Below are positions 7,499-41,719 of a stretch of DNA of 51,482 nucleotides, piece after piece (position 1 is the first letter of the stretch; each line of letters begins with the position of its first letter). Under the pieces are notes generated by a model. That model had not been told where the DNA came from. It searched no databases and saw only the letters and a list, made by a program, of their open reading frames with translations. Where the stretch lies: positions 1 through 51,482 of the forward strand of contig JAHJQT010000059.1 in NCBI GenBank assembly GCA_018819085.1, given 5' to 3'. A program made the position numbers and the translations under genes. This DNA is from Patescibacteria group bacterium (lineage in GTDB: Bacteria > Patescibacteriota > Minisyncoccia > Portnoybacterales > UBA2143).

Positions 7499-7500
7499 AA

Positions 7501-11659: not shown

Positions 11660-11862
11660 AATAATTTATTGATTTACTAGTTTAAATTCATCCTAAATAG
11701 ATTTTATTAATTCAAAAGAATATTCTTCATCTGGGGCAAAAATTCAAACAAATCAAAATAGCCATAAGCATAGCCACGATCATTTTCTAACTTTTTCAAA
11801 AATTCTTTAAATACAATAAAAGATTTTTTTGCATTAACATCCATATTTTTTCATTTATTTAA

Positions 11863-12555: not shown

Positions 12556-12563
12556 TTTTTATA

Positions 12564-14811: not shown

Positions 14812-14817
14812 AAAAAA

Positions 14818-16916: not shown

Positions 16917-16934
16917 ATTAATTTCTTTAATTAC

Positions 16935-22488: not shown

Positions 22489-22494
22489 AAAGAA

Positions 22495-24791: not shown

Positions 24792-24793
24792 AA

Positions 24794-25744
24794 TTATTTT
24801 TTAACTTTTAATAAAGGAAAGTTATATTTATCAAGATAATCATTTTCTATACCACTACAACAATTATTATATTCACAGTTTACGCAATCATCGTTTTTAA
24901 TAAAACATTCTTTAAAATCTCTAATCTGTATTTTTTTTAATTGAAAATCCTTACTAACTTTTAATAATCTTCTTTGTCTTCTTTTTTCGATAGCTGAATC
25001 TTGAAATCTAGGCAAATTATCAATGTAACAAAGAGGAAAATTCCAAAATATTATATTAACACCCAATAAGTTAGCTGTTTTAACTGCTTTTTGTATATAT
25101 TCTTTTATTTTTTTAAAATCAGTTGGTAATGATTTCTTAAGTAAAGATTTTAATGTATCGCCAATATATATTAATCTAAATTCTATATTAATCTTTTTAT
25201 AATCATATTTCTTAAATAATTTATGTAAATATATAATTAAATCAGATAATGATTCTAAGTTATTTTTATTAATAACTAAAATAAGCATTATTGGCAATTT
25301 ATATTTTAAAAAATTTTCTAAGCCAGACATTCTCTTTATTTCGATTTCACTAATAGGTAAATTATTAATAGAGCCAATAATTTTATTATTTCTATCAGAT
25401 GGAAAATAATTTAATGTCTTCTCTAAAAAACTCTTATTATTAAAATGCAAAAGATTTGTTATAATTCTGAATTCTATCTTTTCTTTGTAAAAATAATCAA
25501 GAATTTTAAAAAAATTCTTATGAATAGTAGGCTCTCCTCCTGTAATAATAACATAATCAAGATTAAAATTATTTCTTAAATAATTAAAATTATCTTTTAT
25601 TTCTTTCAATGAAAGATCTTTTAATCCTTTTTTTGTATATTTTCTTTCAATACAAAAATTGCAATCATCATTACAGTTAGCAGTTATTTTAAACAATGCA
25701 GCAACATTTTCTTTTTGGTATTTTATAATCTTTTTTTTATTCAT
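24794..25744 (-). CDS. Radical SAM protein (short family variant, C-terminal 4-Cys motif)
   Basis: CNDDCNFC triad and TGGEPTIHKNF motif. C-terminal FPLC...CVNCEYNNCCSG. Confidence 0.75.
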   Translation of the reverse strand: MNKKKIIKYQKENVAALFKITANCNDDCNFCIERKYTKKGLKDLSLKEIKDNFNYLRNNFNLDYVIITGGEPTIHKNFFKILDYFYKEKIEFRIITNLLHFNNKSFLEKTLNYFPSDRNNKIIGSINNLPISEIEIKRMSGLENFLKYKLPIMLILVINKNNLESLSDLIIYLHKLFKKYDYKKINIEFRLIYIGDTLKSLLKKSLPTDFKKIKEYIQKAVKTANLLGVNIIFWNFPLCYIDNLPRFQDSAIEKRRQRRLLKVSKDFQLKKIQIRDFKECFIKNDDCVNCEYNNCCSGIENDYLDKYNFPLLKVKK

Positions 25745-25750
25745 AAATAC

Positions 25751-27313
25751 TCACCAAATATAATTTTTAACTTTTGAAGAATTCATTAGCGGATCATTAG
25801 CCTTATAACTACCATTAAAAAAATATGCTGAATACCTATCTCCTCCTTTACATTTTTCTAAAAAAGCACATTTCTTACATTCTTTTGGTATATTATTATA
25901 ATTTCTTAATGATTTCATGAAAGAATGATTCCAGCAAGCATTAATATCTAATGGGTCTCCGATATTTTTTTCAATATAATACATCGGTTTGGCAAAACCA
26001 CGTGGATCAATAACAAATCTTTCATGACCATCAACTGATTTAGCCCCTCCACAAACAGCATTTATTTTAATAGGATCATAAGCACAAAAAGGAACAGCAT
26101 TAATTATATGAACTTTTAAAGAATAATTATTCCTAACTATATCTTTTTTAATTTTAATTAATTTTTCTATTAAAAGTGGAATTTCTTTCTTTCCCCAAAT
26201 TATTTTTTCTCCAGGATTGGGTATCACCCGATTAATCATCCATTTATTAATTTTTAACTCTTTGAACAGTTTGTAAAATTTTTCTGAATTCTTAATATTC
26301 TCCATAGTTGCAACTGTACTAACATTAACAATTTTTACTCCTGCTTTTCTGAACCATTTTATAGCTCTTATTTTCTTTTCAAAAGAATTTTCAAATCCAG
26401 TTATTTTCTCATCTTCTTTAGAATTACAAGTATGCATTGAAAAAAGAATATAATCTAAATACTTAGCTATTTCTTTTACTTGTTTATAATCCTTAATTAA
26501 AGAACCATTTGTATTTAATTTAACCTGCAATCCTTTTTCTTTAGCATATTTTATTAAACTAAAAATATTTTTCCTTAATATTGGCTCTCCACCAGTGAAT
26601 CTTACTGCTGATACGCCTGTTTTTTTTAAATTGTCAATTATTTTTTTAATATACAGACTGCTTAGCTCCTTGCCTAATCTGTCTTTTTTAGCAAAACTAA
26701 CACGATTAAAACAAAAATCACATTTAAAATTACATTTATGAGTTACTTCAATTATAACTTCTCGAGGTAATAATTTTGGTTTAATTTTACTTTTGTTTAA
26801 ATTTTTAAGATACCCTTTTAAAATGCCATTGCATTTTTGATTATAAGCGCATAATTTACACTTTTTCAATTTCACAAAATCTTTAAAATTATTACTTTTT
26901 AAAATAAGGCCTTCAGGTTCAGGAATTAAACAATAAGGAAGACCTTCAACTTTAATTATCAAATCAAATAAAAAGACATAACGAGCTTTTGAGATGTAAG
27001 AAGCTACAACATCTAAAGAATCTATTAATTTATCTTTGCTTGGATTAATTAGGTTAAACTGTACTTTTTTGATTCTAAATTTTTTTGCTATTTTTAAAAT
27101 ACCATTTAGTCTAAAATAATTAGAATTTTTGACTTGATTCCCAGTATAAATATCTACACTAAGAACAATATTATCTTTTTTACCTTCTTTAATTAATTCT
27201 TCTATTTTCTGAATAGACTTTTTAAACGTAAAATTATTCTTAACAAAACGCTCATGGATTTCTGAACGATGACCGTATAAATAAATTTTAGAATAATTAT
27301 TTCTTTTTATCAT
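25751..27313 (-). CDS. Two-module radical SAM/SPASM protein (longest of three paralogues)
   Basis: The N-terminal ~180 aa lack a CX3CX2C triad but carry LPYC...CKLCAYNQKCNG. The core has CNFKCDFC and TGGEPILRKN. C-terminal CKKCAFLEKCKGG. The C-terminal half is close to 14818..16170 (DPRGFAKP.YYI.KNIGDPLDINACWNH). Confidence 0.8.
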   Translation of the reverse strand: MIKRNNYSKIYLYGHRSEIHERFVKNNFTFKKSIQKIEELIKEGKKDNIVLSVDIYTGNQVKNSNYFRLNGILKIAKKFRIKKVQFNLINPSKDKLIDSLDVVASYISKARYVFLFDLIIKVEGLPYCLIPEPEGLILKSNNFKDFVKLKKCKLCAYNQKCNGILKGYLKNLNKSKIKPKLLPREVIIEVTHKCNFKCDFCFNRVSFAKKDRLGKELSSLYIKKIIDNLKKTGVSAVRFTGGEPILRKNIFSLIKYAKEKGLQVKLNTNGSLIKDYKQVKEIAKYLDYILFSMHTCNSKEDEKITGFENSFEKKIRAIKWFRKAGVKIVNVSTVATMENIKNSEKFYKLFKELKINKWMINRVIPNPGEKIIWGKKEIPLLIEKLIKIKKDIVRNNYSLKVHIINAVPFCAYDPIKINAVCGGAKSVDGHERFVIDPRGFAKPMYYIEKNIGDPLDINACWNHSFMKSLRNYNNIPKECKKCAFLEKCKGGDRYSAYFFNGSYKANDPLMNSSKVKNYIW

Positions 27314-27319
27314 AAAAAA

Positions 27320-28426
27320 TTATTTTATAATTCTTTTAATAAAATTTATAATATTATTTTTATTACTTGAGAATCCATTATATCTTTCTGAAAAAAGTTT
27401 TATTAAAACATTAATAAGTTTATTAATAATTTTGAACTCGTCTTTTTTGTTAACGCCCAAATAAACAAATTGACCATGTAAATTTTTAATAAATCTTTTT
27501 AGAATCCTGCCTCTACTAGAATTATCTAATTCCTGTCCATCAAAAATTATAAAACTTATTGTTCTGATATGATCGATAATAATATTTAGGTTCTCTTCAA
27601 ATAAATTAATTGAATTATCGTTTATAGATTTAAAATAATCTAATAAAATCTTTTTCAAAGGAAATATTAAAGAAATATCATAAATATTATCCTTATTTTC
27701 TAAAGCCATTAAAAGTCTCTCGAAGCCGAAACCCTCTAAAACAGCTTGATTTCTTGTTCTTTTAAGCTGACCAGTGAATTTGAATTTATAATTAACATGA
27801 GAACCAATTTCAATGTATTTATTTCCAATCTTATAATATATTTCACAACCGGTTGATCCTGGATTATCAATTATACGAGAATAAAATAAATTTCTCTGTC
27901 CAATAGTCCTAAAAATTCTATCTTTACCCAAATGATTAATATAAGTATTATAAAAAATTTCATCTTCTTCTTCTGTTAATTTAATACCTTCAGCCTCACA
28001 AGAATGTAATATAGTCACAAGAATTTTGTTTTTATCTAGTCCAAGAACATTGAACATAAGATTACATAACAATTCAACTGATTTTTCTTTAGATAAATTT
28101 TCAGCTGCTCCAACAGAGCCAAACACTAATAATTCGAAAAAACTAAGATGACGGCTACTAATACCTACATTCTTCGCGTCATTCACTCTTATGCTTCTAT
28201 CTGGCAAAATATAGAAATTATCAATTGGCAAATGAGATTCTTTTTTAAAAACAATAATATCATCAATAATATGATGCGCAGCACTAGGAGAATAAGTATA
28301 ATTAAATCTTGGCTGAATTAAACCAGAAGAAAATTCATTCCTAAAATTTTCTTTTTCTAAAAAATTTTTTATTTTTATCAATAATTTATTATGTTTTAGA
28401 ACTATTTTATCTATATTCATAATCAA
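27320..28426 (-). CDS. Alanyl-tRNA synthetase catalytic-core homologue (class IIc), truncated stand-alone form
   Basis: Co-linear matches to AlaRS core motifs. RVNDAKNVGISSRHLSFFELLVFGSVG matches R.GGKHNDLENVG.T.RHHTFFEMLGNFSFG. STGCEIYY...YIEIGSHVNYKF matches GPCTEIFYD...IEIWNIVFMQF. LEGFGFERLLMALENKDNIYDISLIF matches DTGMGLERIAAVLQ...NYDIDLF. At 368 aa there is no room for tRNA-recognition, editing or C-Ala domains. Confidence 0.6.
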   Translation of the reverse strand: MIMNIDKIVLKHNKLLIKIKNFLEKENFRNEFSSGLIQPRFNYTYSPSAAHHIIDDIIVFKKESHLPIDNFYILPDRSIRVNDAKNVGISSRHLSFFELLVFGSVGAAENLSKEKSVELLCNLMFNVLGLDKNKILVTILHSCEAEGIKLTEEEDEIFYNTYINHLGKDRIFRTIGQRNLFYSRIIDNPGSTGCEIYYKIGNKYIEIGSHVNYKFKFTGQLKRTRNQAVLEGFGFERLLMALENKDNIYDISLIFPLKKILLDYFKSINDNSINLFEENLNIIIDHIRTISFIIFDGQELDNSSRGRILKRFIKNLHGQFVYLGVNKKDEFKIINKLINVLIKLFSERYNGFSSNKNNIINFIKRIIK

Positions 28427-28434
28427 AAATATAA

Positions 28435-29700
28435 TTACTTTTTAAAATAATAGGCAGATTTCATATAATTTTCAAGTAAATAAAGACATTTTGAAAATTG
28501 CGCTTTAGGAATTTTTAATTCATCTCCATCGTAAGTATAATTAATATAATTTTTTTTAAAAAGACTAAATACTGATTCCAATTCTTTTTCTTCTGCCTTA
28601 GTCAGAGGATTATTATCTAAAAATCGACCTAAATTAAATCTACTTAATCTTTTTATACCAGTATATATATTAAAAACAGGATAAATATTAGTTTTTTTAA
28701 AATTATGAAAAATTCTCATCGGAATCATATTTGCGTCTAATAAGAACTTATAAAGTCTCAATCTTTTAAAATTCATTCCTAATCCAAAACGCAAATGACT
28801 TTTAGCCATCAACCCTAAACCCAAAATACTTGGAAAAGCACCTGAGTAACCATTATAGCAAACACTTATTTTAGCATGTTCTATATTTTTCCCTAAACAC
28901 CATTCATCATAAACTTTTTGATATCCTCTTTTTCTTAAAATCTTTTCAAAATATAATAGATCTATTTTTTTCTGATAAGTGCTATAACGATGAATTTTTT
29001 TTCCATAATAATTATTTTCTTGCTGCGCCCTTAATTTATAAAAATGCATTCCATTAGGATGAAAATCAAGCACCTGCTTAAATTCATTCAGTCTATTATT
29101 ACAATATAATAATTCATTTCTAAAGCCATACATTAAGTCAACGGACCAAATAAAATCACTTTCTGCTAAAGTTTTAAGGCAATCAAGAATAACTTTTCTA
29201 GAAGTTCTTCTATTTTCTTGCTTCAAAATATTATCATTAAGCGTTTGAACACCTAATTGAATTTTAGTTACATTATATTTTTTTAACTCTTCTAAATATG
29301 ATTCAAAATCATCACAAGGTAAAATTTCTACAATAAATCTTTCTAAATTATTAAAATCTACTAATTTTTCTAAAGGTTTAATTAATAATTCAGGAGAAAC
29401 CAAATTAGGAGTGCCTCCACCAATATGAACATTCTTAAATTTAAAACCATTTAAAATATCAGCATACAATAAAATTTCTTTATTATAATATTTTAAAAAT
29501 TCATCTGAATTAAATTGATTATATAAACAAGGCTTATAAATGCAAAAATTACAAAAATTTGAACAGAAAGGATAATTAATGTATAAAAGACTATCTTTTC
29601 TTATTTTTTTTAATTCGAGTCTTAATATTTTTTCAATACCCCTACTCTGCTTAAATATGTTTTTAAAATCTTTATCTCTTTTATTAATATTGTTTTTCAT
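28435..29700 (-). CDS. HemN/HemW-like (class C type) radical SAM protein
   Basis: YPFCSNFCNFCIY triad context and HIGGGTPNL motif. 421 aa. Confidence 0.8.
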   Translation of the reverse strand: MKNNINKRDKDFKNIFKQSRGIEKILRLELKKIRKDSLLYINYPFCSNFCNFCIYKPCLYNQFNSDEFLKYYNKEILLYADILNGFKFKNVHIGGGTPNLVSPELLIKPLEKLVDFNNLERFIVEILPCDDFESYLEELKKYNVTKIQLGVQTLNDNILKQENRRTSRKVILDCLKTLAESDFIWSVDLMYGFRNELLYCNNRLNEFKQVLDFHPNGMHFYKLRAQQENNYYGKKIHRYSTYQKKIDLLYFEKILRKRGYQKVYDEWCLGKNIEHAKISVCYNGYSGAFPSILGLGLMAKSHLRFGLGMNFKRLRLYKFLLDANMIPMRIFHNFKKTNIYPVFNIYTGIKRLSRFNLGRFLDNNPLTKAEEKELESVFSLFKKNYINYTYDGDELKIPKAQFSKCLYLLENYMKSAYYFKK

Positions 29701-29709
29701 AAAATGAAA

Positions 29710-30807
29710 CTATAAAATTTTACTTTCTGGAGATCTACGACAGCATCTTTGACAGACATAAAACAATCCATTATTTTTTATTTCATTGAAAAGTTTTTTT
29801 GCTCTCTGACCATTTAATATTTCTTCTAATGGCATTTTTTTTATATTACCAAGATAATAAAAAGAAATACTACATCCAGGGAATACATCTCCATTTTGAT
29901 CTATCCTTATTTGTTTAAAAACATTAGGACAACTATTAATTTTATGGCAACCATCAGAAAACCATTTTTTATACTTTTTGTCTGAATCAAAATCAGGAAA
30001 AAATAATACACGCATTCTAGATTTTTCAGATAATTTTCTTTTTATTAAATTAATTTTTCTTACAACTTCATTTATTTCTTTTTTATTAAGCTTGCCTAAT
30101 TTATTATCTAATCCCTCTATTAATTTTGCTCGCTCTTCATAAACATTAAATCTTTCATGAAATTCATTAACGCATTTATCTATAATTAAAGAATTTGACC
30201 ATTGTGCCAACGAAAAAGAAAGTACATCGCATTTAACATCTTCAGCTAAAGACAAAACACTATCAAAAGATCCTACATTTAATTTATTTATTACAGTATT
30301 AATAGCTAATAAGGGAAGGTAAAAATTAATATTTTCTTTCATTATTTGTAATTTTTTAATGCTTTCTAATGTTCTATTAAAGTTTCCATTACCTCTATTG
30401 GCATCGTGATCAACAGAATTTCCATCTATGGAAAACATTAAAGCAGAAGTTTGATTTTTAATTAATTCCGAAAAAATCTTTTTGTCATTATGTGTTCCAT
30501 TTGTAAATATCATTAATTTAACTTTTTGTTTTTTTGCATGTTTCAATATATTAAAAATATTAGGATTTAAAAATGGCTCCCCACCAGATAAATTAATCGT
30601 AATATCATTATAATCTTCAAATCGCTTCAATTGTTCTACCAGCTTTTTAAAAAGTTCAAAAGTGAAATTACAACTCTTATTATTAAAAAAAGATATCTTT
30701 TTTTCTTTAATGCCTGTTAAAAAACATGTCTTACATTTTAAATTACATAAGTTTGTTGTTTCAATAGTAATTTTTTCTAAATAATTATTCAAAAATTTTA
30801 ATTTCAT
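29710..30807 (-). CDS. Radical SAM/SPASM-domain protein (possible HxsC counterpart)
   Basis: CNLKCKTC triad and SGGEPFLNPN motif. C-terminal Cys-rich region CPNVFKQIRIDQNGDVFPGC...CQRCC. The HxsC idea rests only on size and context. Confidence 0.75.
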   Translation of the reverse strand: MKLKFLNNYLEKITIETTNLCNLKCKTCFLTGIKEKKISFFNNKSCNFTFELFKKLVEQLKRFEDYNDITINLSGGEPFLNPNIFNILKHAKKQKVKLMIFTNGTHNDKKIFSELIKNQTSALMFSIDGNSVDHDANRGNGNFNRTLESIKKLQIMKENINFYLPLLAINTVINKLNVGSFDSVLSLAEDVKCDVLSFSLAQWSNSLIIDKCVNEFHERFNVYEERAKLIEGLDNKLGKLNKKEINEVVRKINLIKRKLSEKSRMRVLFFPDFDSDKKYKKWFSDGCHKINSCPNVFKQIRIDQNGDVFPGCSISFYYLGNIKKMPLEEILNGQRAKKLFNEIKNNGLFYVCQRCCRRSPESKIL

Positions 30808-30813
30808 ATTTTT

Positions 30814-31872
30814 TTATTTTTCACTTAAAATATTATTACAATAGTGTTTATAATACCAGAAACTAGGCAATACAGAGATAAATTTCTGTTGTTTTGTAAA
30901 AATACTTTTATATTTTCCTCTTACTGCAACCATAGCAGCATTATCTCCACAAAACTCTTTTTTTAATGGTGCTTTGAAAACAATTTTATTTTTAACAGCA
31001 ATATTTTTTATTTTATCTTTAAAAATAGAATTAGCAGAAACACCACCAACTAAATGCATTTCTTTAACCTTATAATCTTTAGCAATTTTTAAGAATTCTT
31101 GTCCTAATAAATTAAAGATATAATCTAAAAAACTAAAAGATAAATTTCTTTGAAAATTCTCATTTAATAAATTTTTTCTATATTTTGAGTAAATTTTTTC
31201 AATTGCCTTATTTGTATCTAAAATTATTAACGTATTTTTATTTCGTTTAATTCTTATTTCGTTTAATTCAGGAATTTCTATTTTTTTTCCTCTTTTAGCA
31301 AGATCAGAAAGCATATTTCCACCATCACCAGTTTTTATAATCTTAATTCTCATTCCATGGCAAAATACATCAAAAAGTGCTGCAATTCCATTAAAAGAAT
31401 TTTTTTTAGAATCCCATACTATGGAAATTAACTTATTAATTTTTTTGTGACTTTCCTGATAATATATAGCTGTATGAGCACCAGAGACGCTTAAACCAAG
31501 AATAGGAAATTTGAATTCTTTTTCTTGTCTTTCGAGCCAATTTGAATAAAGATGTGCAATTTCATGATCAATGCCTATGATTTTCTTTTTTTTAGAATAA
31601 CCTAAAATACAAGCAGCTGTAACACCTATTGGAAGAGATTGAAATGTACCCTTTTTATTAATAACTGAGATTAATTTAATTTTGTTCCATGTGTTATCAG
31701 GCAATAAATTTAAAAGATCTACCAAATTTTTTATATGAGCACTAAAAAATCTATCAGCATCTTGATCATAAAGATCTATACTTATAGATTTGTTAAATTT
31801 AACTTTATTATTATTATCAATTAAAGCTAATCCAGTAGTATGAAATGTTGTGTCAATACCTAAAAATAACAT
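30814..31872 (-). CDS. Second divergent Kae1/TsaD-family protein
   Basis: FLGIDTT start, DHEIAH His pair, SVSGAHT, VGGVSAN and CGDNAAMVA motifs. It is the first gene after the hairpin at 31913-31940. Confidence 0.65.
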   Translation of the reverse strand: MLFLGIDTTFHTTGLALIDNNNKVKFNKSISIDLYDQDADRFFSAHIKNLVDLLNLLPDNTWNKIKLISVINKKGTFQSLPIGVTAACILGYSKKKKIIGIDHEIAHLYSNWLERQEKEFKFPILGLSVSGAHTAIYYQESHKKINKLISIVWDSKKNSFNGIAALFDVFCHGMRIKIIKTGDGGNMLSDLAKRGKKIEIPELNEIRIKRNKNTLIILDTNKAIEKIYSKYRKNLLNENFQRNLSFSFLDYIFNLLGQEFLKIAKDYKVKEMHLVGGVSANSIFKDKIKNIAVKNKIVFKAPLKKEFCGDNAAMVAVRGKYKSIFTKQQKFISVLPSFWYYKHYCNNILSEK

Positions 31873-31961: not shown

Positions 31962-32954
31962 TTATTTATTATATTCTTCAGAATAAAATTCACACATTAA
32001 ATTTTTAGCTTGATTATGAAATATTTCACAATCTTCATATTTTTTCAGTTCACATTCTTTTGTTCCATTAAACCCAAAATCTTTACAATTTATATAATCC
32101 AAACTCATCACATAATGTTTACATTTTTCTTTTGAATCTAAATCTGGAATAGAATCACATAATTCTAAAGCTAATTCTTTATCACCAACACGAAAAGCCA
32201 AAGATGATCTCATCAAAAATTGAACACTTAATAAATCAACATCGTTTGACCATGGAAACTCTATATTATCTTTCTCAAAATTAGACCAATCATTGCTATA
32301 TCTAATAATATTTTCGCATAGACTATTACATCTACGTTCTGCTTCATTAAACACTTCTTTAGAAAGTTTATTTCTTCTTTCTGGTAATAATGCTCCTGAA
32401 TTTAAACAAATTTCTAAAAAATAATCTGTTATTTTATTATTTGGACATATTTTTTCTATAGGCATTAAAGCAATGCCATTAGCATATTCATATTGAACAC
32501 TTAATAATCCTATCTTATTATTATTTTCATCATATCTATTAAGTATTGCACCTAATGAATCTATGCTTAGAATATATTCCTTTGTATAATCTGAAATTTT
32601 TAATTCTTGAATTAAAGATGTTGTTCTTTTATATAATTCATTAAATATATGTTTATCAAAATCTTCTCTATAATTAATTAATTCACATGATAAATACCGT
32701 ACCATTTCAAAATTAATCATTTCTAATTCCTTATCTGTAAAAAAATTTGAATTATTTATTTCTTTTATAAATTTCTCATCACTCATTTTATTAACTTTTT
32801 CTAAGCAATTTGATTTAATTTCTAATTTTGTTGTGTCTGAAGAATTATTAAAAAAATTATATTTTTCTTGCGAATATAAAAAACTGGCCAATAAACCAAC
32901 CATTAATAAAACAACTATTAATATAAATAATAATATTTTATTTTTTAAATTCAT
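31962..32954 (-). CDS. Membrane-anchored Cys-rich hypothetical protein
   Basis: N-terminal hydrophobic helix ILLFILIVVLLMVGLLASFLY followed by a ~300-aa domain with many Cys residues. It starts 11 nt after the stop of the His-Xaa-Ser ORF. Confidence 0.6.
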   Translation of the reverse strand: MNLKNKILLFILIVVLLMVGLLASFLYSQEKYNFFNNSSDTTKLEIKSNCLEKVNKMSDEKFIKEINNSNFFTDKELEMINFEMVRYLSCELINYREDFDKHIFNELYKRTTSLIQELKISDYTKEYILSIDSLGAILNRYDENNNKIGLLSVQYEYANGIALMPIEKICPNNKITDYFLEICLNSGALLPERRNKLSKEVFNEAERRCNSLCENIIRYSNDWSNFEKDNIEFPWSNDVDLLSVQFLMRSSLAFRVGDKELALELCDSIPDLDSKEKCKHYVMSLDYINCKDFGFNGTKECELKKYEDCEIFHNQAKNLMCEFYSEEYNK

Positions 32955-32965: not shown

Positions 32966-33406
32966 TTAATATGACGAATGAGAGCCATGGGATCCGTGTG
33001 AACTATGTGAGCCATGGGATCCGTGTGAGCCATGTGAACCATGGGAACCATGTGAACCGTGGGAACCATGTGAACCGTGGGAACCATGTGAGCCGTGGGA
33101 ACCATGTGAGCCGTGGGAACCATGTGAGCCGTGGGAACCATGTGAGCCGTGAGAGCTATGGGAACCATGAGAAGAATGGGAACCATGAGAACTGTGAGAG
33201 CTATGGGATCCATGAGAGCTGTGAGAGGCATGAGTACAAGCTGCTGAAGCTGGATCTGCTTTCATTGCTCCAGCTAGACCAACACCTAAGGCCACAAAAG
33301 TTAATGCTATTTTAGCAACACTTTTTTTATTGATTCTTCCTTCTTCACTCGTTAAAAAAGCCTTGATATCTTTTTTAATCTGAGGTATTTTTATTTTTTT
33401 TATCAT
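32966..33406 (-). CDS. His-Xaa-Ser repeat protein (HxsA-like candidate radical SAM substrate)
   Basis: The 58-aa N-terminal part has a hydrophobic stretch and an ASA site. It is followed by ~29 consecutive H-[GSA]-S triplets and a terminal Tyr. It is the longest of three frames open across the repeat, and the only one with a plausible N-terminal domain and operon fit. Confidence 0.75.
   Translation of the reverse strand: MIKKIKIPQIKKDIKAFLTSEEGRINKKSVAKIALTFVALGVGLAGAMKADPASAACTHASHSSHGSHSSHSSHGSHSSHGSHSSHGSHGSHGSHGSHGSHGSHGSHGSHGSHGSHGSHGSHGSHGSHGSHGSHSSHGSHGSHSSY
32972..33232. repeat. Coding tandem repeat (9-nt His-Xaa-Ser unit, with a core of near-perfect 18-nt units)
   Basis: Visible units ccatgtgaaccgtgggaa and ccatgtgagccgtgggaa repeat head-to-tail between ~33030 and ~33150. 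Degenerate copies flank this core. Confidence 0.9.
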
Positions 33407-33456: not shown

Positions 33457-33465
33457 ATTATAACA
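33457..33465 (-). promoter_or_regulatory. Candidate extended -10 element (TGTTATAAT) upstream of the His-Xaa-Ser ORF
   Basis: The reverse complement of 33457-33465 reads TGTTATAAT, ~50 nt upstream of the ATG at 33406. No convincing -35 was found. TATAAT-like strings are common in DNA this AT-rich. Confidence 0.25.
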
Positions 33466-33520
33466 AATAAAATAGATAAAGGATAGATTGCATGTGGATA
33501 ATTATTATTGAAAATTTAAA

Positions 33521-33560
33521 CAGCCAGAGGAAAATTTTCTCCTGGCTGTTATTTTTTTTG
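33521..33560 (-). terminator. Hairpin downstream of the lipoprotein gene
   Basis: cagccag (33521-33527) pairs with ctggctg (33542-33548), with further imperfect pairing. T/A runs lie on both sides, and the T-run is actually stronger on the plus strand. Confidence 0.35.
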
Positions 33561-33571: not shown

Positions 33572-34225
33572 TTAAGATGGGGTATCTCCTCCTGAACGTG
33601 GCCGAGACCTATCTCGCGGATCAACGTCTCCCTTGAAATAAATGTTAAACGTCGACTCAATTATGAGCCACTTCCCATTTTGATTTACTAAATGAAGTTC
33701 TTTAGTTAACCAAAGGAGATCCCCTCCTTCAGCAGAGATTGATGCTACAGCATCAACCTCTGCTGTTAACCCGTTAACTTCGATTTCGAAAGATTCGTAT
33801 TTTACAAATCCTGCCGCCTCAAATGCGGCTGGAAACATCTTCGTGTAAACCATCTTTGTCACAATTCGTTGTTCTCGCCCAACCATAATTTTCGCTTCTG
33901 AGTGGAATAATGAAAGATATCCCACCACGTCCCTCTTATTCCATGTCTGCTCAGACTTAAACAAAACTTCTCTAACTAAGTCTTTCGCTCCTGTTGTGAT
34001 AGAAGAAGTGGGAGTAGTTACAATGATGGGCCCAGAATCACGAGCTGGATTATAGACAGCGTTAGAACTAATGTTTCCAGCACCTCCAGAAGAAGGACCT
34101 CCGCTCCTAATTTGAATATTCATTCCGGCTACTGAATAGCCACCAATGAGATGTTCACCACCACATGCCGTAAGAAACGTTCCTACAGCTACTATTGTCA
34201 TTACTATCATTAGATTCTTTCTCAT
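33572..34225 (-). CDS. Lipoprotein with NTF2/SnoaL-like C-terminal domain; compositionally foreign
   Basis: Lipobox in MRKNLMIVMTIVAVGTFLTAC-GG. Strong SD (AGGAGGAAAAATC before the ATG). Clearly higher G+C than both neighbours. The NTF2-like call is a weak impression from the C-terminal half. Confidence 0.7.
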   Translation of the reverse strand: MRKNLMIVMTIVAVGTFLTACGGEHLIGGYSVAGMNIQIRSGGPSSGGAGNISSNAVYNPARDSGPIIVTTPTSSITTGAKDLVREVLFKSEQTWNKRDVVGYLSLFHSEAKIMVGREQRIVTKMVYTKMFPAAFEAAGFVKYESFEIEVNGLTAEVDAVASISAEGGDLLWLTKELHLVNQNGKWLIIESTFNIYFKGDVDPRDRSRPRSGGDTPS

Positions 34226-34321: not shown

Positions 34322-35770
34322 TCACTTGTCAAGCCATTTTTTGAAAATTTCTTTTATTTTTGGATCTTGCAATTTTTCAAATAAGAAAGAAATCATAGCT
34401 TTATTGATCTTACATCTTTCATTGGTTGGCATTTGTCCAAAAATATTTCCTTGTTCAGCATAATTATAAATAGGACAGATTCCACAATATGGCTTATAAG
34501 CACAATCATCACATCCAGCTAAACCATCAAGACAAGAAGCAGTACATAAAGTTCTCACTATTGGATTTCCAACTATTTCCTGATATGTATTTTCTTTAAC
34601 ATTTCCTAAACAAAAACTTTCATCGTTCATCATACTCATCATTCTTCCCTCATCGCAAGTATAGACATTACCGTTATAATTATAAGCTAATTGACCTATT
34701 CCTGCTCCACAAGGAGATCTAAAATCTAAATGGTTAGGATCTTTTTCAGTTAAAATTTTCTTTAAAAAAGTTACAGCTGCTTTTTCTCTAACTTTTTTTC
34801 CTTTAAGATTTAATCCTATAATATACGAAAGAGCATTTTTGTAAAAATTAATATATTCATCAGCTGTATAGCCTATTTTTTTAAAACTTTCTTTAAGAAG
34901 TCCAAAAGGATTTAATGGTCTTCCTAAATAAAAATCATCAAAACCTAATTTTATATACTCATCAACTATTTCCTTATAATAAGACAGAGAGAAACGACTT
35001 ATGGTTACAGATAGTCCTATTTTGAAAATATACCCTTTTTTTCTTAATTGCGGATATAATTTAAAAAATTTCTTAGACCATTTAGTTGCATAATAATAGC
35101 TATTACCCTTAACCATTGGACGATTCTTATTATGAACTTTTTCAGGACCATCTATAGAAACACAAAAACTGACATTTTTATCAAGCAAATACTTAAATTT
35201 TTCCTCGGTCATTAATGAAAAGTTGGAAACTAGTCTAATCTCTAAATCTTTTTTAGCCTTTTTATTCTTTTTATAAGCTTCTTCTATGATAAATTTAACT
35301 ATTGGCCAATTTACTAATGGCTCGCCTCCTTGAAATTCAATAGCAACAAAAGGACTTGTTGTTTGAAATATTTTTTCAACAACATTTTTAGCTGTTTCTT
35401 TATCCATATCTAAATCAGTCCTGTCCATTGCTTGAGCGCTAGCATGACAATAAACACATTTATGATTACATCTTAAGGTGACAACAACAATATGCAAACT
35501 TGGACCATTGAATAAAAAAGAATTTTTTAAACGATATTTATCTATTGATTCTGTTAAATCTAAATCTTTTTTAATAAAACTCTTTTTATTTAAGGATAAA
35601 TATGGTTCTTTGTCTTTTTCTAAATTATCAGATAAAAAATCTTTAAATTCTTTTTTTGTTAAAAATAAAAAACCACCAACATCATTTGTTAAAAGATATT
35701 TATCTTTTATTTTTTTAAAACGAAAAAATCCAAGCTTATTATATTTAATTTTTTTTAAGTCAGATAACAT
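34322..35770 (-). CDS. Radical SAM/SPASM maturase, anSME-like architecture (HxsB-like)
   Basis: CNHKCVYC triad and FQGGEPLVNW motif. SPASM region CGAGIGQLAYNYNGNVYTCDEGR...CDDCAYKPYCGICP. N-terminal FRFKKIKDKYLLTNDVGGFLFLTKKEFKDFL extension. 482 aa. Confidence 0.85.
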   Translation of the reverse strand: MLSDLKKIKYNKLGFFRFKKIKDKYLLTNDVGGFLFLTKKEFKDFLSDNLEKDKEPYLSLNKKSFIKKDLDLTESIDKYRLKNSFLFNGPSLHIVVVTLRCNHKCVYCHASAQAMDRTDLDMDKETAKNVVEKIFQTTSPFVAIEFQGGEPLVNWPIVKFIIEEAYKKNKKAKKDLEIRLVSNFSLMTEEKFKYLLDKNVSFCVSIDGPEKVHNKNRPMVKGNSYYYATKWSKKFFKLYPQLRKKGYIFKIGLSVTISRFSLSYYKEIVDEYIKLGFDDFYLGRPLNPFGLLKESFKKIGYTADEYINFYKNALSYIIGLNLKGKKVREKAAVTFLKKILTEKDPNHLDFRSPCGAGIGQLAYNYNGNVYTCDEGRMMSMMNDESFCLGNVKENTYQEIVGNPIVRTLCTASCLDGLAGCDDCAYKPYCGICPIYNYAEQGNIFGQMPTNERCKINKAMISFLFEKLQDPKIKEIFKKWLDK

Positions 35771-35777: not shown

Positions 35778-36044
35778 TTATGACCTCATTAAAAAAAAGA
35801 CGTAATTACAAAACTCGTCTTTAATTATTTTTTCAACGCTTTTGTCAATATTGCTCAATTCTACCTGAATATATTTTTTTGTTTTCTTAAAGCTAAAATC
35901 AGCTAAATTATTATATTCTTTTATAGCTGATTTTATTGATTTAAGATTATATAAGTTTTTATTAAAACTAATCAGTATTCTCTCTTTTTTGTTACGCTGT
36001 TTTCCTGTTTTGTTTTTTGATTGTTTTTTCTGTTTTTTCACCAT
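35778..36044 (-). CDS. Small HxsD-like domain protein (second copy)
   Basis: The ORF track gives a TTG start at 36068. I prefer the ATG at 36042-36044 (MVKKQKK...). The C-terminal part ILISFNKNLYNLKSIKSAIKEY...IIKDEFCNYVFFLMR is co-linear with the upstream HxsD-like ORF. It overlaps that ORF by ~50 nt. Confidence 0.4.
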   Translation of the reverse strand: MVKKQKKQSKNKTGKQRNKKERILISFNKNLYNLKSIKSAIKEYNNLADFSFKKTKKYIQVELSNIDKSVEKIIKDEFCNYVFFLMRS

Positions 36045-36429
36045 ATTTGTCTTCCCATGGTATAGCAATACCTAAAGGATCATCTTCGTATTTTACTTCA
36101 TCCTCCTTATTAACTTGATCATCTCCAAAAGCTGAAAACAATGCCTGACTAATAATATACTCCCTTATTTTCCTATTATTCTTAGATAAATTAATTCTGA
36201 CAGTATAATTTAAAAGTTCATTCAAAAACTCGCCTTTAAGATTTTTTAATTGCTTTTCGTTTAATTTATTTTTTCCTTTTAAAGATACCTCTATTTTTCT
36301 AGATGATTTATTATCTAAAAATAAATATGCTTTATCAAGAAAAACATAAGCTGCTCCATAAAGAGCTTCCTTAGGATAATTCTGAAGATCAAAAACAAAC
36401 CTTATAGTATTATTTCTTAAATCTACCAT
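35992..36429 (-). CDS. HxsD-like protein
   Basis: EFLNELLNYTVRINL resembles the LLNDYxLRE signature that, as I recall, names the HxsD family model. It lies immediately upstream of the HxsB-like rSAM. Confidence 0.5.
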   Translation of the reverse strand: MVDLRNNTIRFVFDLQNYPKEALYGAAYVFLDKAYLFLDNKSSRKIEVSLKGKNKLNEKQLKNLKGEFLNELLNYTVRINLSKNNRKIREYIISQALFSAFGDDQVNKEDEVKYEDDPLGIAIPWEDKYGEKTEKTIKKQNRKTA

Positions 36430-38091: not shown

Positions 38092-38103
38092 CTCTAAAAA
38101 CTA

Positions 38104-38553: not shown

Positions 38554-38611
38554 CTTTTTCACCCCCTTTCGTTTAAATATAATTTTAATATTCAATACTT
38601 AATTCCGACCT

Positions 38612-39817: not shown

Positions 39818-39832
39818 ATTATATTAATTAAT

Positions 39833-41276: not shown

Positions 41277-41296
41277 AATCTATAATAATTTAATAT

Positions 41297-41713: not shown

Positions 41714-41719
41714 ATTTTA

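What the first reader, a model, noticed from the sequence alone, without database searches (positions are those of the whole stretch)
32966..33406. 146-aa ORF whose last 88 residues are ~29 back-to-back His-Xaa-Ser triplets behind an export-like N-terminus
Seen in sequence: the protein begins with a charged N-terminus (MIKKIKIPQIKKDIKAFLTSEEGRINKKSV). A hydrophobic stretch with an A-x-A site follows (AKIALTFVALGVGLAGAMKADPASA), then a single Cys (AACT). The rest reads HAS-HSS-HGS-HSS-HSS-HGS-HSS-HGS-HSS-(HGS)n-HSS-HGS-HGS-HSS-Y without interruption, and Xaa is only G, S or A.

Established knowledge: TIGRFAMs/NCBIfam define a purely bioinformatic His-Xaa-Ser system. It comprises the HxsA repeat protein, the radical SAM pair HxsB/HxsC, and HxsD. 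To my knowledge its chemistry and biological role remain undetermined.

Inference: this ORF is the substrate or scaffold of the surrounding radical SAM enzymes. His-X-Ser fits the aromatic-X-X three-residue register used by rSAM/SPASM cyclophane (triceptide-type) enzymes. One concrete hypothesis is therefore an iterated His-to-residue-3 crosslink ladder. An alternative is a post-translationally altered His-rich metal-binding polymer.

The export-like N-terminus and the cytoplasmic rSAM chemistry together imply modification before export, which is unusual.
Basis: partly seen in the sequence, partly recalled or inferred. Interest (0 to 1): 0.92.

Follow-up and report, generated by a model that had tools for sequence, protein, structure and literature searches.

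The report
HxsA4 His-Xaa-Ser repeat precursor protein
This is a real gene for a small exported protein whose tail is 29 His-x-Ser triplets; it belongs to a catalogued but untested variant (HxsA4) of the radical-SAM "HXS" system, whose classical form was shown in 2026 to block phage DNA entry.

Summary
The minus-strand ORF 32966..33406 encodes 146 aa: a charged leader, one hydrophobic segment, ASA-AC, then 29 uninterrupted HxS triplets and a final Tyr.

It is a real gene read in that frame. Variation among the repeat units is synonymous only in the HxS frame, leader dN/dS is 0.05-0.14 against 11 relatives, and more than 700 homologue clusters exist.

It passes the curated NCBIfam model HxsA4 (NF038313), not classical HxsA. 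HxsB and HxsD pass their cut-offs just upstream. No gene passes the HxsC or HxsC4 cut-off, although eight radical SAM genes have one of them as best hit.

The host is a Patescibacteria (CPR) MAG. The cassette lies inside a type IV pilus operon and is followed by a ~27-kb island, giving 14 radical SAM genes in all plus a probable A24-type membrane peptidase.

Li et al. 2026 showed that classical HXS is an antiphage system whose effector is matured in the cytoplasm and then exported. The HxsA4 type differs: it has no peptidoglycan-binding domain, no basic repeat residues, and 4-43 repeats between species. It is untested experimentally.

Verdict: a new member of a known kind, of moderate interest.

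The parts
32966..33406 (-). hxsA4: 146-aa His-Xaa-Ser repeat precursor or effector (stop codon included)
   Evidence: Translation. NCBIfam NF038313 scores 108.8 bits against a cut-off of 55. 724 homologue clusters at E<=0.001. An identical protein occurs on a second metagenome contig.
33317..33406 (-). Residues 1-30: conserved charged leader (IPQIKKDIKAFLTSEEGRINKK); F, L, E and G are nearly invariant across the family
   Evidence: Alignments A1 and A4. 110 of 120 homologues carry the F[LIV]x[ED][ED][GAR] motif. dN/dS is 0.05-0.14.
33233..33316 (-). Residues 31-58: hydrophobic segment (31-48), then KADP-ASA|A-C-T, which holds a candidate signal peptidase I site and the only Cys
   Evidence: Hydropathy 1.92 over residues 30-48. 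A Cys lies within 3 residues of the first repeat in 62 of 120 homologues. The cleavage site itself is inferred, not tested.
32969..33232 (-). Residues 59-146: (HxS)29 array plus the terminal Tyr. Units 10-21 alternate between two 9-nt forms (an 18-nt period), which suggests a recent expansion
   Evidence: The array is 54% GC against 27.6% for the window.
33457..33465 (-). TGTTATAAT, an extended -10-like element about 50 nt upstream of the hxsA4 start
   Evidence: Read from the sequence. It is a consensus match only. The promoter scan, which requires both hexamers, did not list it.
33519..33550 (-). Stable hairpin followed by UUUAAAUUUUC just after the stop of the upstream gene; terminator-like, so it separates hxsA4 transcriptionally
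   Evidence: RNA fold gives -16.7 kcal/mol, z = -4.7, and 0 of 200 shuffles fold as well.
33572..34225 (-). 217-aa predicted lipoprotein (LTAC lipobox) with a weak DUF4440/NTF2-like match; found in only a few relatives
   Evidence: L001, L013, L015.
34322..35770 (-). hxsB: radical SAM/SPASM maturase with a ~95-aa N-terminal extension
   Evidence: TIGR03978 scores 531.7 bits against a cut-off of 370. CX3CX2C at residue 101 and 11 Cys after residue 200. 37% identical to annotated HxsB of Aeromonas. The nearest solved structure is 5wgg at E=3e-17.
35778..36068 (-). Small HxsD-like protein; the longest ORF overlaps the end of hxsD, so the real start is probably internal
   Evidence: NF038315 scores 65.5 bits against a cut-off of 41. 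It is conserved between HxsD and HxsB in most relatives.
35992..36429 (-). hxsD
   Evidence: TIGR03976 scores 63.5 bits against a cut-off of 50.
31962..32954 (-). 330-aa protein starting 11 bp after the hxsA4 stop: N-terminal membrane anchor plus an all-helical domain with 12 invariant Cys; function unknown
   Evidence: AF2 mean pLDDT 79, no PDB match at E<=0.001. Homologous proteins follow HxsA4 in L002, L013-L015, L022 and L027.
13447..31872 (-). Variable tailoring block. It holds 8 more radical SAM genes (13447, 14818, 16935, 17911, 24794, 25751, 28435, 29710), two TsaD/Kae1-like genes, a TsaC-like gene, a NodU-type carbamoyltransferase, an ATP-grasp gene, a PLP decarboxylase, an SDR and an AlaRS-catalytic-domain-like gene
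   Evidence: The content differs between relatives. A link to HxsA4 is inferred only from co-location.
9825..13460 (-). Three small radical SAM genes (9825-10694, 10691-11659, 12564-13460) whose best family hit is HxsC4, below its cut-off
   Evidence: NF038332 scores 121-170 bits against a cut-off of 500.
6572..9413 (-). Recurrent module: HxsC-like rSAM (6572-7498), HxsC4-like rSAM (7501-8424) and a DUF483-like protein (8421-9413)
   Evidence: TIGR03977 scores 175.3 bits against a cut-off of 267.9, and NF038332 scores 162 against 500. The 6572 gene is 24% identical (E=2e-22) to annotated HxsC of Aeromonas but lacks its ~110-aa N-terminal domain. The module recurs in L004, L005, L008, L009, L020 and L029.
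5346..6572 (-). 408-aa polytopic membrane protein, a probable divergent A24-type (prepilin-peptidase-like) aspartyl peptidase; a candidate HxsA4 leader peptidase (inferred)
   Evidence: Orthologues hit Pfam Peptidase_A24 at E=3e-5 and 4.5e-3, just below the gathering score. About 20 of the 120 listed homologues carry a precomputed PF01478 hit, and four are named prepilin peptidase or CpaA by their sources. D21 and D110 (in GDAKLF) are invariant in 31 sequences. Not confirmed by hhalign against PilD or by fold search.

Best explanation
The ORF is hxsA4, the ribosomally made precursor or effector of a type-4 His-Xaa-Ser system in a Patescibacteria (CPR) genome.

Proposed mechanism, step by step:
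1. Shown: it is translated in the HxS frame.
2. Inferred: the conserved 23-30-residue N-terminal leader stays in the cytoplasm and is the handle for the maturation machinery. That machinery is HxsB (an rSAM/SPASM maturase with an N-terminal peptide-binding-type extension), HxsD, the small HxsD-like protein, and the HxsC/HxsC4-like small radical SAM enzymes.
3. Inferred by homology to classical HXS: these enzymes covalently modify His and/or Ser side chains of the repeat units before export.
4. Inferred from the positive-inside rule and the A-S-A site: the single hydrophobic segment then inserts N-in/C-out. The leader is removed by signal peptidase after A55, by the island's own A24-type membrane peptidase, or by both.
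5. Inferred by analogy only: the modified roughly 90-residue (HxS)29 tail ends up outside the membrane as an envelope-associated polymer. Its most likely role is the one shown for E. coli HxsA, a barrier to incoming phage DNA.

Repeat number changes quickly between species, and the tailoring gene set is variable. Both would fit a surface molecule under diversifying pressure.
For: Membership:
- HxsA4, HxsB, HxsD and HxsD-like all score above their curated cut-offs.

Real gene in this frame:
- Codon-position pattern of the repeat units.
- Leader dN/dS of 0.05-0.14.
- 724 homologue clusters sharing the same leader, hydrophobic segment, repeat and aromatic-end architecture.

Substrate link:
- HxsD and HxsB lie in the same locus as HxsA4 in 21 of 22 species-level genomes, and also in L004, L005 and L008.
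- hxsA4 has its own terminator-like hairpin and -10-like element upstream, as is usual for precursor genes.

Topology:
- 9 K/R against 3 D/E before an 18-19-residue hydrophobic stretch, followed by A-S-A.
- The adjacent gene encodes an anchored protein with 12 invariant Cys, suggesting an extracytoplasmic partner.

Processing:
- A probable A24 peptidase recurs with the HxsC-like genes even in loci without pilus genes.

Function and order of events, from the literature:
- Li et al. [quoted passage not shown]
Against: - No gene reaches the HxsC or HxsC4 cut-off, and the best HxsC-like gene lies 27 kb from hxsB.
- HxsA4 has no peptidoglycan-binding domain and shows no BLASTP similarity to a classical HxsA.
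- The middle residue of its repeats is G, S or A here, and almost never basic across the family (7 K/R among ~1,370 triplets). The electrostatic DNA-binding model for E. coli HxsA therefore transfers poorly.
- CPR cells are, to my knowledge, thought to lack an outer membrane, so they would have no classical periplasm.
- PADLOC gives only generic viperin-type radical SAM hits.
- The cassette sits in a pilus operon or next to housekeeping genes, not in a recognisable defence island.
- Export, cleavage site and modification were not, and could not be, tested here.
- The A24 assignment of 5346-6572 was not confirmed by fold search.
Confidence: 0.6

Rival explanations
1. The matured (HxS)n tail is a metal-binding polymer, either cell-surface or secreted, that handles Ni, Zn or Cu for capture, buffering or detoxification. 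The radical SAM crosslinks would rigidify the His array. It would not be an antiphage effector.
For: There are 29 imidazoles at a strict 3-residue spacing, with only small residues between them and no acidic or basic residues. Without Arg or Lys, DNA binding would depend on His protonation alone. His-containing RiPPs with crosslinks that bind copper are known (title of PMC10206099, listed). That poly-His tracts bind metals is my own knowledge.
Against: No metal transporter, chaperone or metalloregulator is encoded in the window. The only experimental result for any Hxs system points to antiphage function (PMC13128918). Rapid change in repeat number (4-43) fits an arms-race surface molecule better than a housekeeping metal buffer.
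Confidence: 0.2
2. HxsA4 is a non-canonical substrate of the type IV filament machinery. The island's A24-type peptidase would cut the leader near the invariant Gly, and the hydrophobic helix would then be assembled into, or docked onto, the pilus, decorating it with a crosslinked His-rich tail.
For: The cassette lies inside a type IV pilus operon with the same gene order in 10 of 22 related species genomes. A DPANN archaeal HxsA4-type cluster is independently flanked by T2SSE, T2SSF and Peptidase_A24 genes. A second, dedicated A24-like peptidase recurs with the system. A nearly invariant Gly ends the conserved leader motif.
Against: There is no N_methyl or Flp_Fap match in HxsA4 or in 32 family leaders. 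The residues after the Gly are charged (RINKKSV), not the hydrophobic N-terminus of pilins. An A-x-A type site after the hydrophobic segment is common in the family. In 12 of 22 loci the cassette has other neighbours, such as an S41 protease, ribonucleotide reductase or Wzy, so the pilus linkage may be inherited synteny.
Confidence: 0.1
3. A classical triceptide-type RiPP. HxsB would install a His-C2 to Ser-C-beta cyclophane on every HxS unit (-2 Da each), giving a 29-ring ladder that is released as a small secreted natural product.
For: HxS fits the aromatic-X-X register. His-directed triceptide synthases exist: HaaB acts on HAA, HtkB on HTK and YhhB on HNR (PMC11499958). HxsB is an rSAM/SPASM maturase with weak hits to YhhB and GrrM/OscB.
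Against: HxsB scores far below those families' cut-offs (57 against 445, and 55 against 310). The only measured Hxs modification is +8 Da on one motif (PMC13128918). The membrane-anchor and export architecture and the 14 radical SAM genes do not resemble the compact triceptide clusters.
Confidence: 0.15
4. Not a functional gene: an expanded 9-nt DNA microsatellite that happens to be open in one frame, or a collagen-like structural repeat (the protein hits Pfam Collagen).
For: Pfam Collagen scores 34.8 bits against a gathering score of 27.2. Weak hits to Scl-type adhesins arise because 21 of 29 units have Gly at every third position. A second frame on the same strand is also open.
Against: Variation between units is synonymous only in the HxS frame. 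The leader is under strong purifying selection and is contiguous with that frame in hundreds of homologues from several phyla. The family invariants are H and S, not G: Xaa is G in only 45% of triplets.
Confidence: 0.01

Closest known systems
Classical HXS antiphage system (HxsA/B/C/D) of E. coli, Klebsiella and Aeromonas (Haft & Basu 2011 as cited in PMC9062424; Li et al. 2026, PMC13128918)
   Same: Both have a small exported protein with tandem His-Xaa-Ser repeats encoded beside HxsD and the rSAM/SPASM enzyme HxsB. The window's HxsB is 37% identical to annotated Aeromonas HxsB over 97% of its length and passes the equivalog cut-off. HxsD also passes. A cytoplasmic maturation then export logic is plausible for both.
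   Different: - Classical HxsA has a short Sec signal, 5-7 repeats rich in Arg, and a C-terminal peptidoglycan-binding domain.
- HxsA4 has a long conserved leader before the hydrophobic segment, 29 repeats with only G, S or A in the middle, an aromatic C-terminus, no further domain, and no BLASTP similarity to HxsA.
- The classical gene order is D-B-C-A with B and C always adjacent. Here the order is D, D-like, B, lipoprotein, A4.
- No gene passes the HxsC cut-off. The best HxsC-like gene lacks the N-terminal domain of HxsC.
- About 27 kb of extra radical SAM and tailoring genes follow the cassette.
- The host is a CPR bacterium, whereas 99.7% of classical systems are in Pseudomonadota.
NCBIfam type-4 Hxs families: HxsA4 (NF038313), HxsC4 (NF038332), HxsD-like (NF038315)
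   Same: The ORF and the small HxsD-like protein score above the curated cut-offs. NCBI already names homologues 'His-Xaa-Ser repeat protein HxsA4' in Omnitrophota and Actinobacteria MAGs.
   Different: These are name-only bioinformatic families, and I found no paper that mentions them. The window has no protein reaching the HxsC4 cut-off; the best scores are 121-170 bits against 500.
Triceptides: three-residue cyclophane RiPPs made by rSAM/SPASM enzymes such as HaaB, HtkB and YhhB (PMC11499958)
   Same: Both use an aromatic(His)-X-X register and an rSAM/SPASM maturase. His-C2 to C-beta crosslinks are established chemistry for the HAA, HTK and HNR motifs.
   Different: HxsB is not a member of those enzyme families by curated cut-offs. 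The reported Hxs mass shift is +8 Da, not -2 Da. Triceptide precursors are, to my knowledge, short cytoplasmic peptides without a membrane segment.
RRE-rSAM-SPASM peptide maturases with solved structures (5wgg, which I recall as the thioether-forming enzyme CteB; anaerobic sulfatase maturase 4k37)
   Same: These are the closest solved structures to HxsB by sequence (E=3e-17 and 4e-9). They share the CX3CX2C core and a Cys-rich C-terminal auxiliary-cluster domain.
   Different: Similarity is limited to the radical SAM core. Substrate and chemistry differ, and there is no solved Hxs protein. HxsD has no PDB relative at E<=1.

Membership tests
HxsA4 (NCBIfam NF038313) | Whole-protein HMM score at or above the curated cut-off (55 bits) | tested here: met
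   108.8 bits, E=1.9e-31, residues 6-103 matched to profile positions 1-92 of 93.
HxsA4 (NCBIfam NF038313) | Family architecture: conserved leader motif, one hydrophobic segment, tandem HxS repeats | tested here: met
   Alignments A1 and A4. The leader motif is present in 110 of 120 homologues. Repeat runs range from 1 to 29.
HxsA4 (NCBIfam NF038313) | Encoded next to Hxs maturation genes | tested here: met
   HxsB, HxsD and HxsD-like lie within 3.1 kb upstream. The same holds in 21 of 22 related loci.
Classical four-gene HXS system (HxsA/B/C/D) | HxsB (TIGR03978) present | tested here: met
   531.7 bits against 370.
Classical four-gene HXS system (HxsA/B/C/D) | HxsD (TIGR03976) present | tested here: met
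   63.5 bits against 50.
Classical four-gene HXS system (HxsA/B/C/D) | HxsC (TIGR03977) present and adjacent to HxsB | tested here: not met
   The best candidate is 6572-7498 at 175.3 bits against 267.9, and it lies 27 kb from hxsB. Seven other rSAM genes score 46-106 bits on the HxsC model. The gene next to hxsB is a lipoprotein gene.
Classical four-gene HXS system (HxsA/B/C/D) | Effector of the classical HxsA type (TIGR03979 match; peptidoglycan-binding domain) | tested here: not met
   No TIGR03979 hit at E<=0.01 and no PG-binding domain in Pfam. No BLASTP alignment to Aeromonas HxsA.
Classical four-gene HXS system (HxsA/B/C/D) | rSAM-dependent N-terminal processing, covalent modification of a repeat, and antiphage activity | not testable with these tools
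   Needs co-expression with mass spectrometry and phage assays. The reference data come from PMC13128918.
Type-4 Hxs system as catalogued by NCBIfam | HxsC4 (NF038332) at or above 500 bits | tested here: not met
   The four genes for which HxsC4 is the best hit score 170.5, 164.8, 162.0 and 121.5 bits.
Type-4 Hxs system as catalogued by NCBIfam | HxsD-like small protein (NF038315) | tested here: met
   65.5 bits against 41.
Triceptide (three-residue cyclophane) RiPPs | Aromatic-X-X core motif | tested here: met
   29 H-x-S units. His is an accepted aromatic residue for HaaB, HtkB and YhhB.
Triceptide (three-residue cyclophane) RiPPs | Maturase belongs to a known cyclophane-synthase family (YhhB NF041707, GrrM/OscB TIGR04261) | tested here: not met
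   HxsB scores 57 bits against 445, and 55.2 bits against 310.
Triceptide (three-residue cyclophane) RiPPs | Aromatic-to-C-beta C-C crosslink (-2 Da per motif) | not testable with these tools
   Needs MS and NMR. The only reported Hxs shift is +8 Da.
Type IV pilin / Flp prepilin | Class III signal peptide recognised by the N_methyl or Flp_Fap models | tested here: not met
   No such hit for HxsA4 or for 32 family leaders scanned up to E=10.
Collagen-like repeat proteins (Pfam PF01391) | Uninterrupted Gly-X-Y with Gly as the conserved position | tested here: not met
   Pfam scores 34.8 against 27.2, but only 21 of 29 units have Gly. In the family Gly occupies Xaa in 45% of triplets, while H and S are the invariants.
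Peptidase A24 (for gene 5346-6572, proposed leader peptidase) | Pfam PF01478 match and two catalytic Asp residues in a polytopic membrane protein | tested here: inconclusive
   The window copy has no Pfam hit. Orthologues score 24.7 and 17.9 bits against a gathering score of 26.5. About 20 of the 120 listed homologues carry a precomputed PF01478 hit. D21 and D110 are invariant. hhalign against PilD gives a probability below 1%, and Foldseek against the PDB finds no match.

The most novel reading that the evidence does not exclude
HxsA4-type systems would be a distinct machine, not a minor variant of HXS. In this reading, a ribosomal poly(His-x-Ser) chain of 4-43 units is worked on by a battery of up to 14 radical SAM enzymes plus carbamoyltransferase, ATP-grasp and aaRS-like tailoring enzymes. 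It is then cut by a dedicated prepilin-peptidase-like protease and displayed on, or alongside, the type IV pilus of ultra-small CPR bacteria and DPANN archaea. The product would be an enzymatically crosslinked, length-variable surface fibre involved in host attachment, DNA uptake or phage exclusion.
Probability: 0.12. Interest if true: 0.85.

Novelty: new member of a known kind. Interest (0 to 1): 0.5.

Why it matters
The chemistry of the His-Xaa-Ser modification has been open since the family was defined in 2011. Even the 2026 functional study could only report an unexplained +8 Da on a single motif, and it could not reconstitute the reaction.

A substrate with 29 identical, uninterrupted units would multiply any per-repeat mass change (about -58 Da or +232 Da in total). 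It has no other domain to complicate analysis, so it is a favourable test substrate for solving that chemistry.

Biologically, this locus shows that Hxs-type systems are not confined to Pseudomonadota. A divergent, much larger form is widespread in CPR bacteria, Omnitrophota and DPANN archaea. It has its own probable peptidase and fast-changing repeat numbers, and it is frequently linked to the type IV pilus. If it is a defence or surface-interaction device, it bears on how episymbiotic ultra-small cells deal with phages and hosts.

Tried and rejected
1. Flp/Tad-prepilin-like leader. I recalled a resemblance between FLxSEEG and the Flp leader. A Pfam scan of 32 family leaders up to E=10 gave no Flp_Fap or N_methyl hit, so I rejected it as a tested claim.

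2. A24 fold for 5346-6572. hhalign against the window's PilD family gave a probability below 1%. An AF2 model with pLDDT 80 had no PDB match at E<=0.001. The assignment therefore rests on Pfam hits in homologues and on invariant Asp residues only.

3. Function of the gene after hxsA4 (31962-32954). Only 8 homologues were found. An AF2 model with pLDDT 79 had no PDB match. No assignment was possible.

4. Collagen-like reading. This is a compositional artefact.

5. Alternative reading frames. One same-strand frame is open, but it has no conserved start, and the substitution pattern contradicts it.

6. Additional precursors in the window. None were found.

7. Defence-system signature. PADLOC gave only generic viperin-type radical SAM hits.

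8. Universal pilus linkage. This is not supported. In loci without pilus genes, HxsD is preceded by an S41 protease, ribonucleotide reductase, Wzy, a transposase-like HTH protein, or PKD/TPR proteins.

9. The first genome-collection scan, using a 42-sequence alignment, failed because no stretch was conserved enough. It was repeated successfully with 11 close sequences.

10. The sigma-70 and terminator consensus scan found nothing convincing on the coding strand upstream of hxsA4. The hairpin and the -10-like element were found by reading and folding the sequence.
Full report
**1. Observation**

- Residues 1-30 are a charged stretch with 9 K/R and 3 D/E.
- Residues 31-48 are hydrophobic (Kyte-Doolittle 1.92 over 19 residues).
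- A53-S54-A55 is followed by A56, then C57 (the only Cys) and T58.
- Residues 59-145 are 29 uninterrupted His-Xaa-Ser triplets (21 HGS, 7 HSS, 1 HAS).
- The last residue is Tyr.

Tandem Repeats Finder reports a 9-nt period with 28.6 copies and an 18-nt sub-period at 88% matches. With the window's own His and Ser frequencies, log10 P for 29 consecutive HxS triplets is about -88.

**2. It is a real gene, read in the HxS frame**

- Among the 29 nine-base units, positions 1, 2, 7 and 8 never vary. Positions 3, 6 and 9 vary freely but always synonymously in the HxS frame. Only positions 4-5 change the residue, among G, S and A.
- The array is 54% GC in a 27.6% GC window, so amino-acid selection is holding it against the compositional trend.
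- The 51 codons from P8 to T58 give dN/dS of 0.05-0.14 against 11 relatives, with dS at or above 1.
- A search of the large protein collection found 724 homologue clusters at E<=0.001.
- The best 120 share the same build: the leader motif (P-x-I-K-K-D-I-K-x-F-L-x-S-E-E-G-x-I-x-K-K), one hydrophobic segment, often a Cys, HxS repeats, and an aromatic residue among the last three in 103 of 120. Typical endings are GQW, GWC, SSY and GSW.
- An identical protein occurs on a contig from another ENA sample.

**3. Family membership**

| Gene (window, minus strand) | Model | Score vs curated cut-off |
|---|---|---|
| 32966-33406 | HxsA4, NF038313 | 108.8 vs 55, passes |
| 32966-33406 | HxsA3, NF038309 | 58.7 vs 65, fails |
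| 32966-33406 | classical HxsA, TIGR03979 | no hit at E<=0.01 |
| 34322-35770 | HxsB, TIGR03978 | 531.7 vs 370, passes |
| 35992-36429 | HxsD, TIGR03976 | 63.5 vs 50, passes |
| 35778-36068 | HxsD-like, NF038315 | 65.5 vs 41, passes |
| 6572-7498 | HxsC, TIGR03977 | 175.3 vs 267.9, fails |
| 7501-8424, 9825-10694, 10691-11659, 12564-13460 | HxsC4, NF038332 | 121-170 vs 500, fails |
| 16935-17918, 17911-18894, 24794-25744 | HxsC, TIGR03977 (best hit) | 46-61 vs 267.9, fails |

So A (type 4), B, D and D-like are present by curated criteria, and C is not.

I compared the locus with an annotated classical operon from an Aeromonas salmonicida plasmid, whose order is hxsD-hxsB-hxsC-hxsA:
- HxsB is 37% identical.
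- The 6572 gene is 24% identical to HxsC (E=2e-22) but lacks HxsC's N-terminal ~110 residues.
- HxsD is barely detectable by BLASTP (E=0.008).
- HxsA4 does not align with HxsA at all.
- Classical HxsA has a short signal peptide, about 7 Arg-rich repeats and a C-terminal domain. Li et al. identify that domain as peptidoglycan-binding.

**4. Genomic setting**

Nearly every gene from 468 to 45985 is on the minus strand. In transcription order they are:
- Type IV pilus genes: PilM, PilO, PilB, a pilin, a response regulator, PilT, PilC, a pilin, and the PilD prepilin peptidase.
- An anchored 256-aa unknown protein.
- HxsD, HxsD-like and HxsB.
- A 217-aa lipoprotein.
- HxsA4.
- An anchored 330-aa protein with 12 invariant Cys, starting 11 bp after the hxsA4 stop.
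- About 27 kb of further genes, described below.
- Two PKD/Ig-domain proteins and two more pilins.

The 27-kb stretch brings the total to 14 radical SAM genes, all with CX3CX2C. It also encodes two TsaD/Kae1-like proteins, a TsaC-like protein, a NodU-type carbamoyltransferase, an ATP-grasp enzyme, a PLP decarboxylase, an SDR and an AlaRS-catalytic-domain-like protein. A DUF483-like protein and a 408-aa polytopic membrane protein complete it.

A stable hairpin (-16.7 kcal/mol, z = -4.7) with a U-rich tail follows the lipoprotein gene. A TGTTATAAT element lies about 50 nt upstream of the hxsA4 start. This suggests, but does not prove, that the precursor gene has its own promoter.

**5. Relatives**

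A scan of one genome per GTDB species found 22 loci. Nearly all are Patescibacteria MAGs labelled Saccharibacteria, Falkowbacteria, Paceibacterota or simply Patescibacteria group; two close ones are labelled Gammaproteobacteria. One is Omnitrophota. Other homologues come from Omnitrophota, from an Actinobacteria-labelled MAG and from a DPANN archaeon. tblastn of the window's proteins against all loci shows:

- HxsD and HxsB lie in the same locus as HxsA4 in 21 of 22 loci, and the HxsD-like gene in most. They usually sit immediately upstream.
- The order PilB ... PilD, unk256, HxsD, HxsD-like, HxsB, HxsA4 recurs in 10 of 22. This includes one locus (L024) where the internal Hxs order differs.
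- The DPANN locus is independently flanked by T2SSE, T2SSF and Peptidase_A24 genes.
- The other 12 loci have different upstream neighbours: S41 protease, ribonucleotide reductase, Wzy, a transposase-like HTH protein, or PKD/TPR proteins. The pilus linkage is therefore frequent but not universal, and it could be inherited synteny.
- The module made of HxsC4-like rSAM, HxsC-like rSAM and the 408-aa membrane protein recurs in Patescibacteria, Omnitrophota and other lineages, including loci without pilus genes.
- The rest of the radical SAM and tailoring set differs from genome to genome.

Repeat number ranges from about 4 to about 43 among species. Some genomes carry two or three tandem precursor genes. 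Several assemblies break inside the array or are gapped there. The array is thus evolutionarily unstable in length while its sequence is conserved.

**6. The 408-aa membrane protein (5346-6572)**

The window copy has no Pfam hit of its own. The evidence for an A24 assignment is:
- Two orthologues match the whole Peptidase_A24 domain at E=3e-5 and 4.5e-3, just below the gathering score.
- About 20 of the 120 listed homologues carry a precomputed PF01478 hit, and four are named prepilin peptidase or CpaA by their sources.
- D21 and D110 (in G-D-A-K-L-F) are invariant in 31 sequences down to 21% identity. This matches the two-aspartate active site of A24 enzymes, which I state from established knowledge of the family.

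A profile comparison with the window's PilD and a fold search with a pLDDT-80 model did not confirm it. I therefore call it a probable divergent A24-type peptidase. Because it travels with the Hxs genes, I infer that it processes HxsA4. This is untested.

**7. What is known**

Li et al. (Nat Commun 2026, PMC13128918) reported the following for the E. coli HXS system:
- It gives broad antiphage protection by blocking phage DNA entry.
- HxsA needs its signal peptide and its peptidoglycan-binding domain.
- HxsB, HxsC and HxsD are each required for a non-canonical N-terminal cleavage.
- A +8 Da change maps to the last repeat (SHRSS).
- The mature protein is periplasmic and binds DNA, and every one of the five repeats is needed.
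- The radical chemistry was not resolved, and in vitro reconstitution failed.
- 99.7% of the systems they counted are in Pseudomonadota, in the order D-B-C-A.

I found no paper mentioning HxsA4, HxsC4 or this type of cluster. His-directed three-residue cyclophane synthases (HaaB, HtkB, YhhB) are established (PMC11499958). HxsB does not belong to those families by curated cut-offs.

**8. Most likely mechanism**

- Shown: the gene, its frame, its family, and its tight, conserved linkage to HxsB, HxsD and HxsD-like.
- Inferred: the conserved leader is the cytoplasmic recognition handle. HxsB and the HxsC-like enzymes modify His and/or Ser in the repeat units before export. The hydrophobic segment inserts N-in/C-out. 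The leader is removed at A55|A56 by signal peptidase, nearer the invariant Gly by the A24-type enzyme, or both. The roughly 90-residue modified tail is displayed outside the membrane, possibly together with the Cys-rich anchored protein encoded next to it.
- By analogy only: the function is an envelope barrier against incoming phage DNA.

My confidence differs by layer. Membership in the HxsA4 family is about 0.95. Being a radical-SAM-modified exported polymer is about 0.6. An antiphage role is about 0.3.

The main reservations are these:
- The repeats have no basic residues (7 K/R among ~1,370 triplets in the family).
- There is no peptidoglycan-binding domain.
- No gene passes the HxsC cut-off.
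- CPR cells are, to my knowledge, thought to lack an outer membrane and so a classical periplasm.
- There is no defence-island signature.

**9. Rivals**

- A metal-binding surface polymer (0.2).
- A triceptide-type cyclophane ladder released as a natural product (0.15).
- A pilus-associated or pilin-like fibre processed by the A24-type enzyme (0.1).
- A non-gene or a collagen-like artefact (0.01).

These readings are not all mutually exclusive. A cyclophane chemistry could underlie any of the functional readings.

**10. Verdict**

The ORF is a new member of a catalogued but experimentally untouched family, HxsA4. Its locus is a large, divergent relative of the recently characterised HXS antiphage system.

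The locus remains moderately interesting for three reasons:
- It offers a favourable substrate for solving the unresolved Hxs chemistry.
- It extends Hxs-type systems to CPR bacteria and DPANN archaea.
- It shows features not described in any paper I could find: a co-travelling probable A24 peptidase, up to 14 radical SAM genes, hypervariable repeat number, and frequent embedding in the type IV pilus operon.

Noticed in passing
window 37255-45985 and 468-1507; loci L011, L013-L018, L022, L024, L028; L009: The Hxs cassette is embedded in a type IV pilus operon (PilM/O/B/T/C/D and pilins upstream, PKD/Ig proteins and pilins downstream). The same order recurs in 10 of 22 related species genomes. 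A DPANN archaeal HxsA4-type cluster is independently flanked by T2SSE, T2SSF and Peptidase_A24 genes. It is not universal: 12 of 22 loci have other neighbours.
   Followed up: partly
window 5346-6572: The window holds a second, divergent A24-type (prepilin-peptidase-like) membrane protein besides the true PilD (37255-38091). Two Asp residues are invariant, and it recurs with HxsC-like radical SAM genes even in genomes where no pilus genes are nearby.
   Followed up: yes
window 21382-24791 and 30814-31872: A set of genes resembles a split O-carbamoyltransferase or threonylcarbamoyl-transfer system: TsaC/Sua5-like (24102-24791), NodU-type carbamoyltransferase (22495-24105) and two TsaD/Kae1-like proteins, all below the tRNA-modification cut-offs. 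They could decorate Ser hydroxyls of the repeat, or they could make an unrelated product.
   Followed up: no
window 27320-28426: A 368-aa protein matches only the catalytic core of alanyl-tRNA synthetase (tRNA-synt_2c, profile positions 62-352 of 552) and sits among radical SAM genes. It may be an amino-acid ligase used for tailoring.
   Followed up: no
window 11660-12563 (ORF 11863-12144): This is a ~900-bp stretch with only a 93-aa ORF. That ORF shares a C-K-K-S-I-S motif with the C-terminal part of the DUF483-like protein at 8421-9413, so it may be the remnant of a decayed paralogue.
   Followed up: no
window 35992-36068: The longest ORF of the HxsD-like gene (TTG start) overlaps the end of hxsD by 77 nt in another frame. 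The HMM match begins at residue 33, so the true start is probably internal.
   Followed up: no
L010, L011, L016, L020 (HxsA4 arrays); L008, L023, L025: Public assemblies often end or carry runs of N inside the HxS array, so repeat numbers in databases are lower bounds. Some genomes carry two or three tandem HxsA4 genes.
   Followed up: partly
HxsA4 family (P0001-P0120); window residue 146: 103 of 120 family members have an aromatic residue among the last three (GQW, GWC, SSY, GSW and similar endings). No explanation was found; it may be a recognition or anchoring signal.
   Followed up: partly
window 46000-51482: GC content rises from about 0.27 to 0.32-0.38, and the genes switch to the plus strand. 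They include a ComF-like phosphoribosyltransferase with a zinc ribbon (46060-46770) and an MFS transporter (48832-50010). This may be a region of different origin.
   Followed up: no
L006/L007 (10001-10330) and L012 (3925-4245): Some HxsA4-type genes have no HxsB or HxsD within reach. In L006 only an anchored Cys-rich 272-aa protein is adjacent, with no Hxs-type radical SAM gene adjacent; the only radical SAM gene in the locus lies about 10 kb away, cut by the locus end. In L012 only HxsC-like radical SAM genes follow, with just 3.9 kb of contig upstream. The maturation genes may lie elsewhere in those genomes, or those copies may work differently.
   Followed up: no
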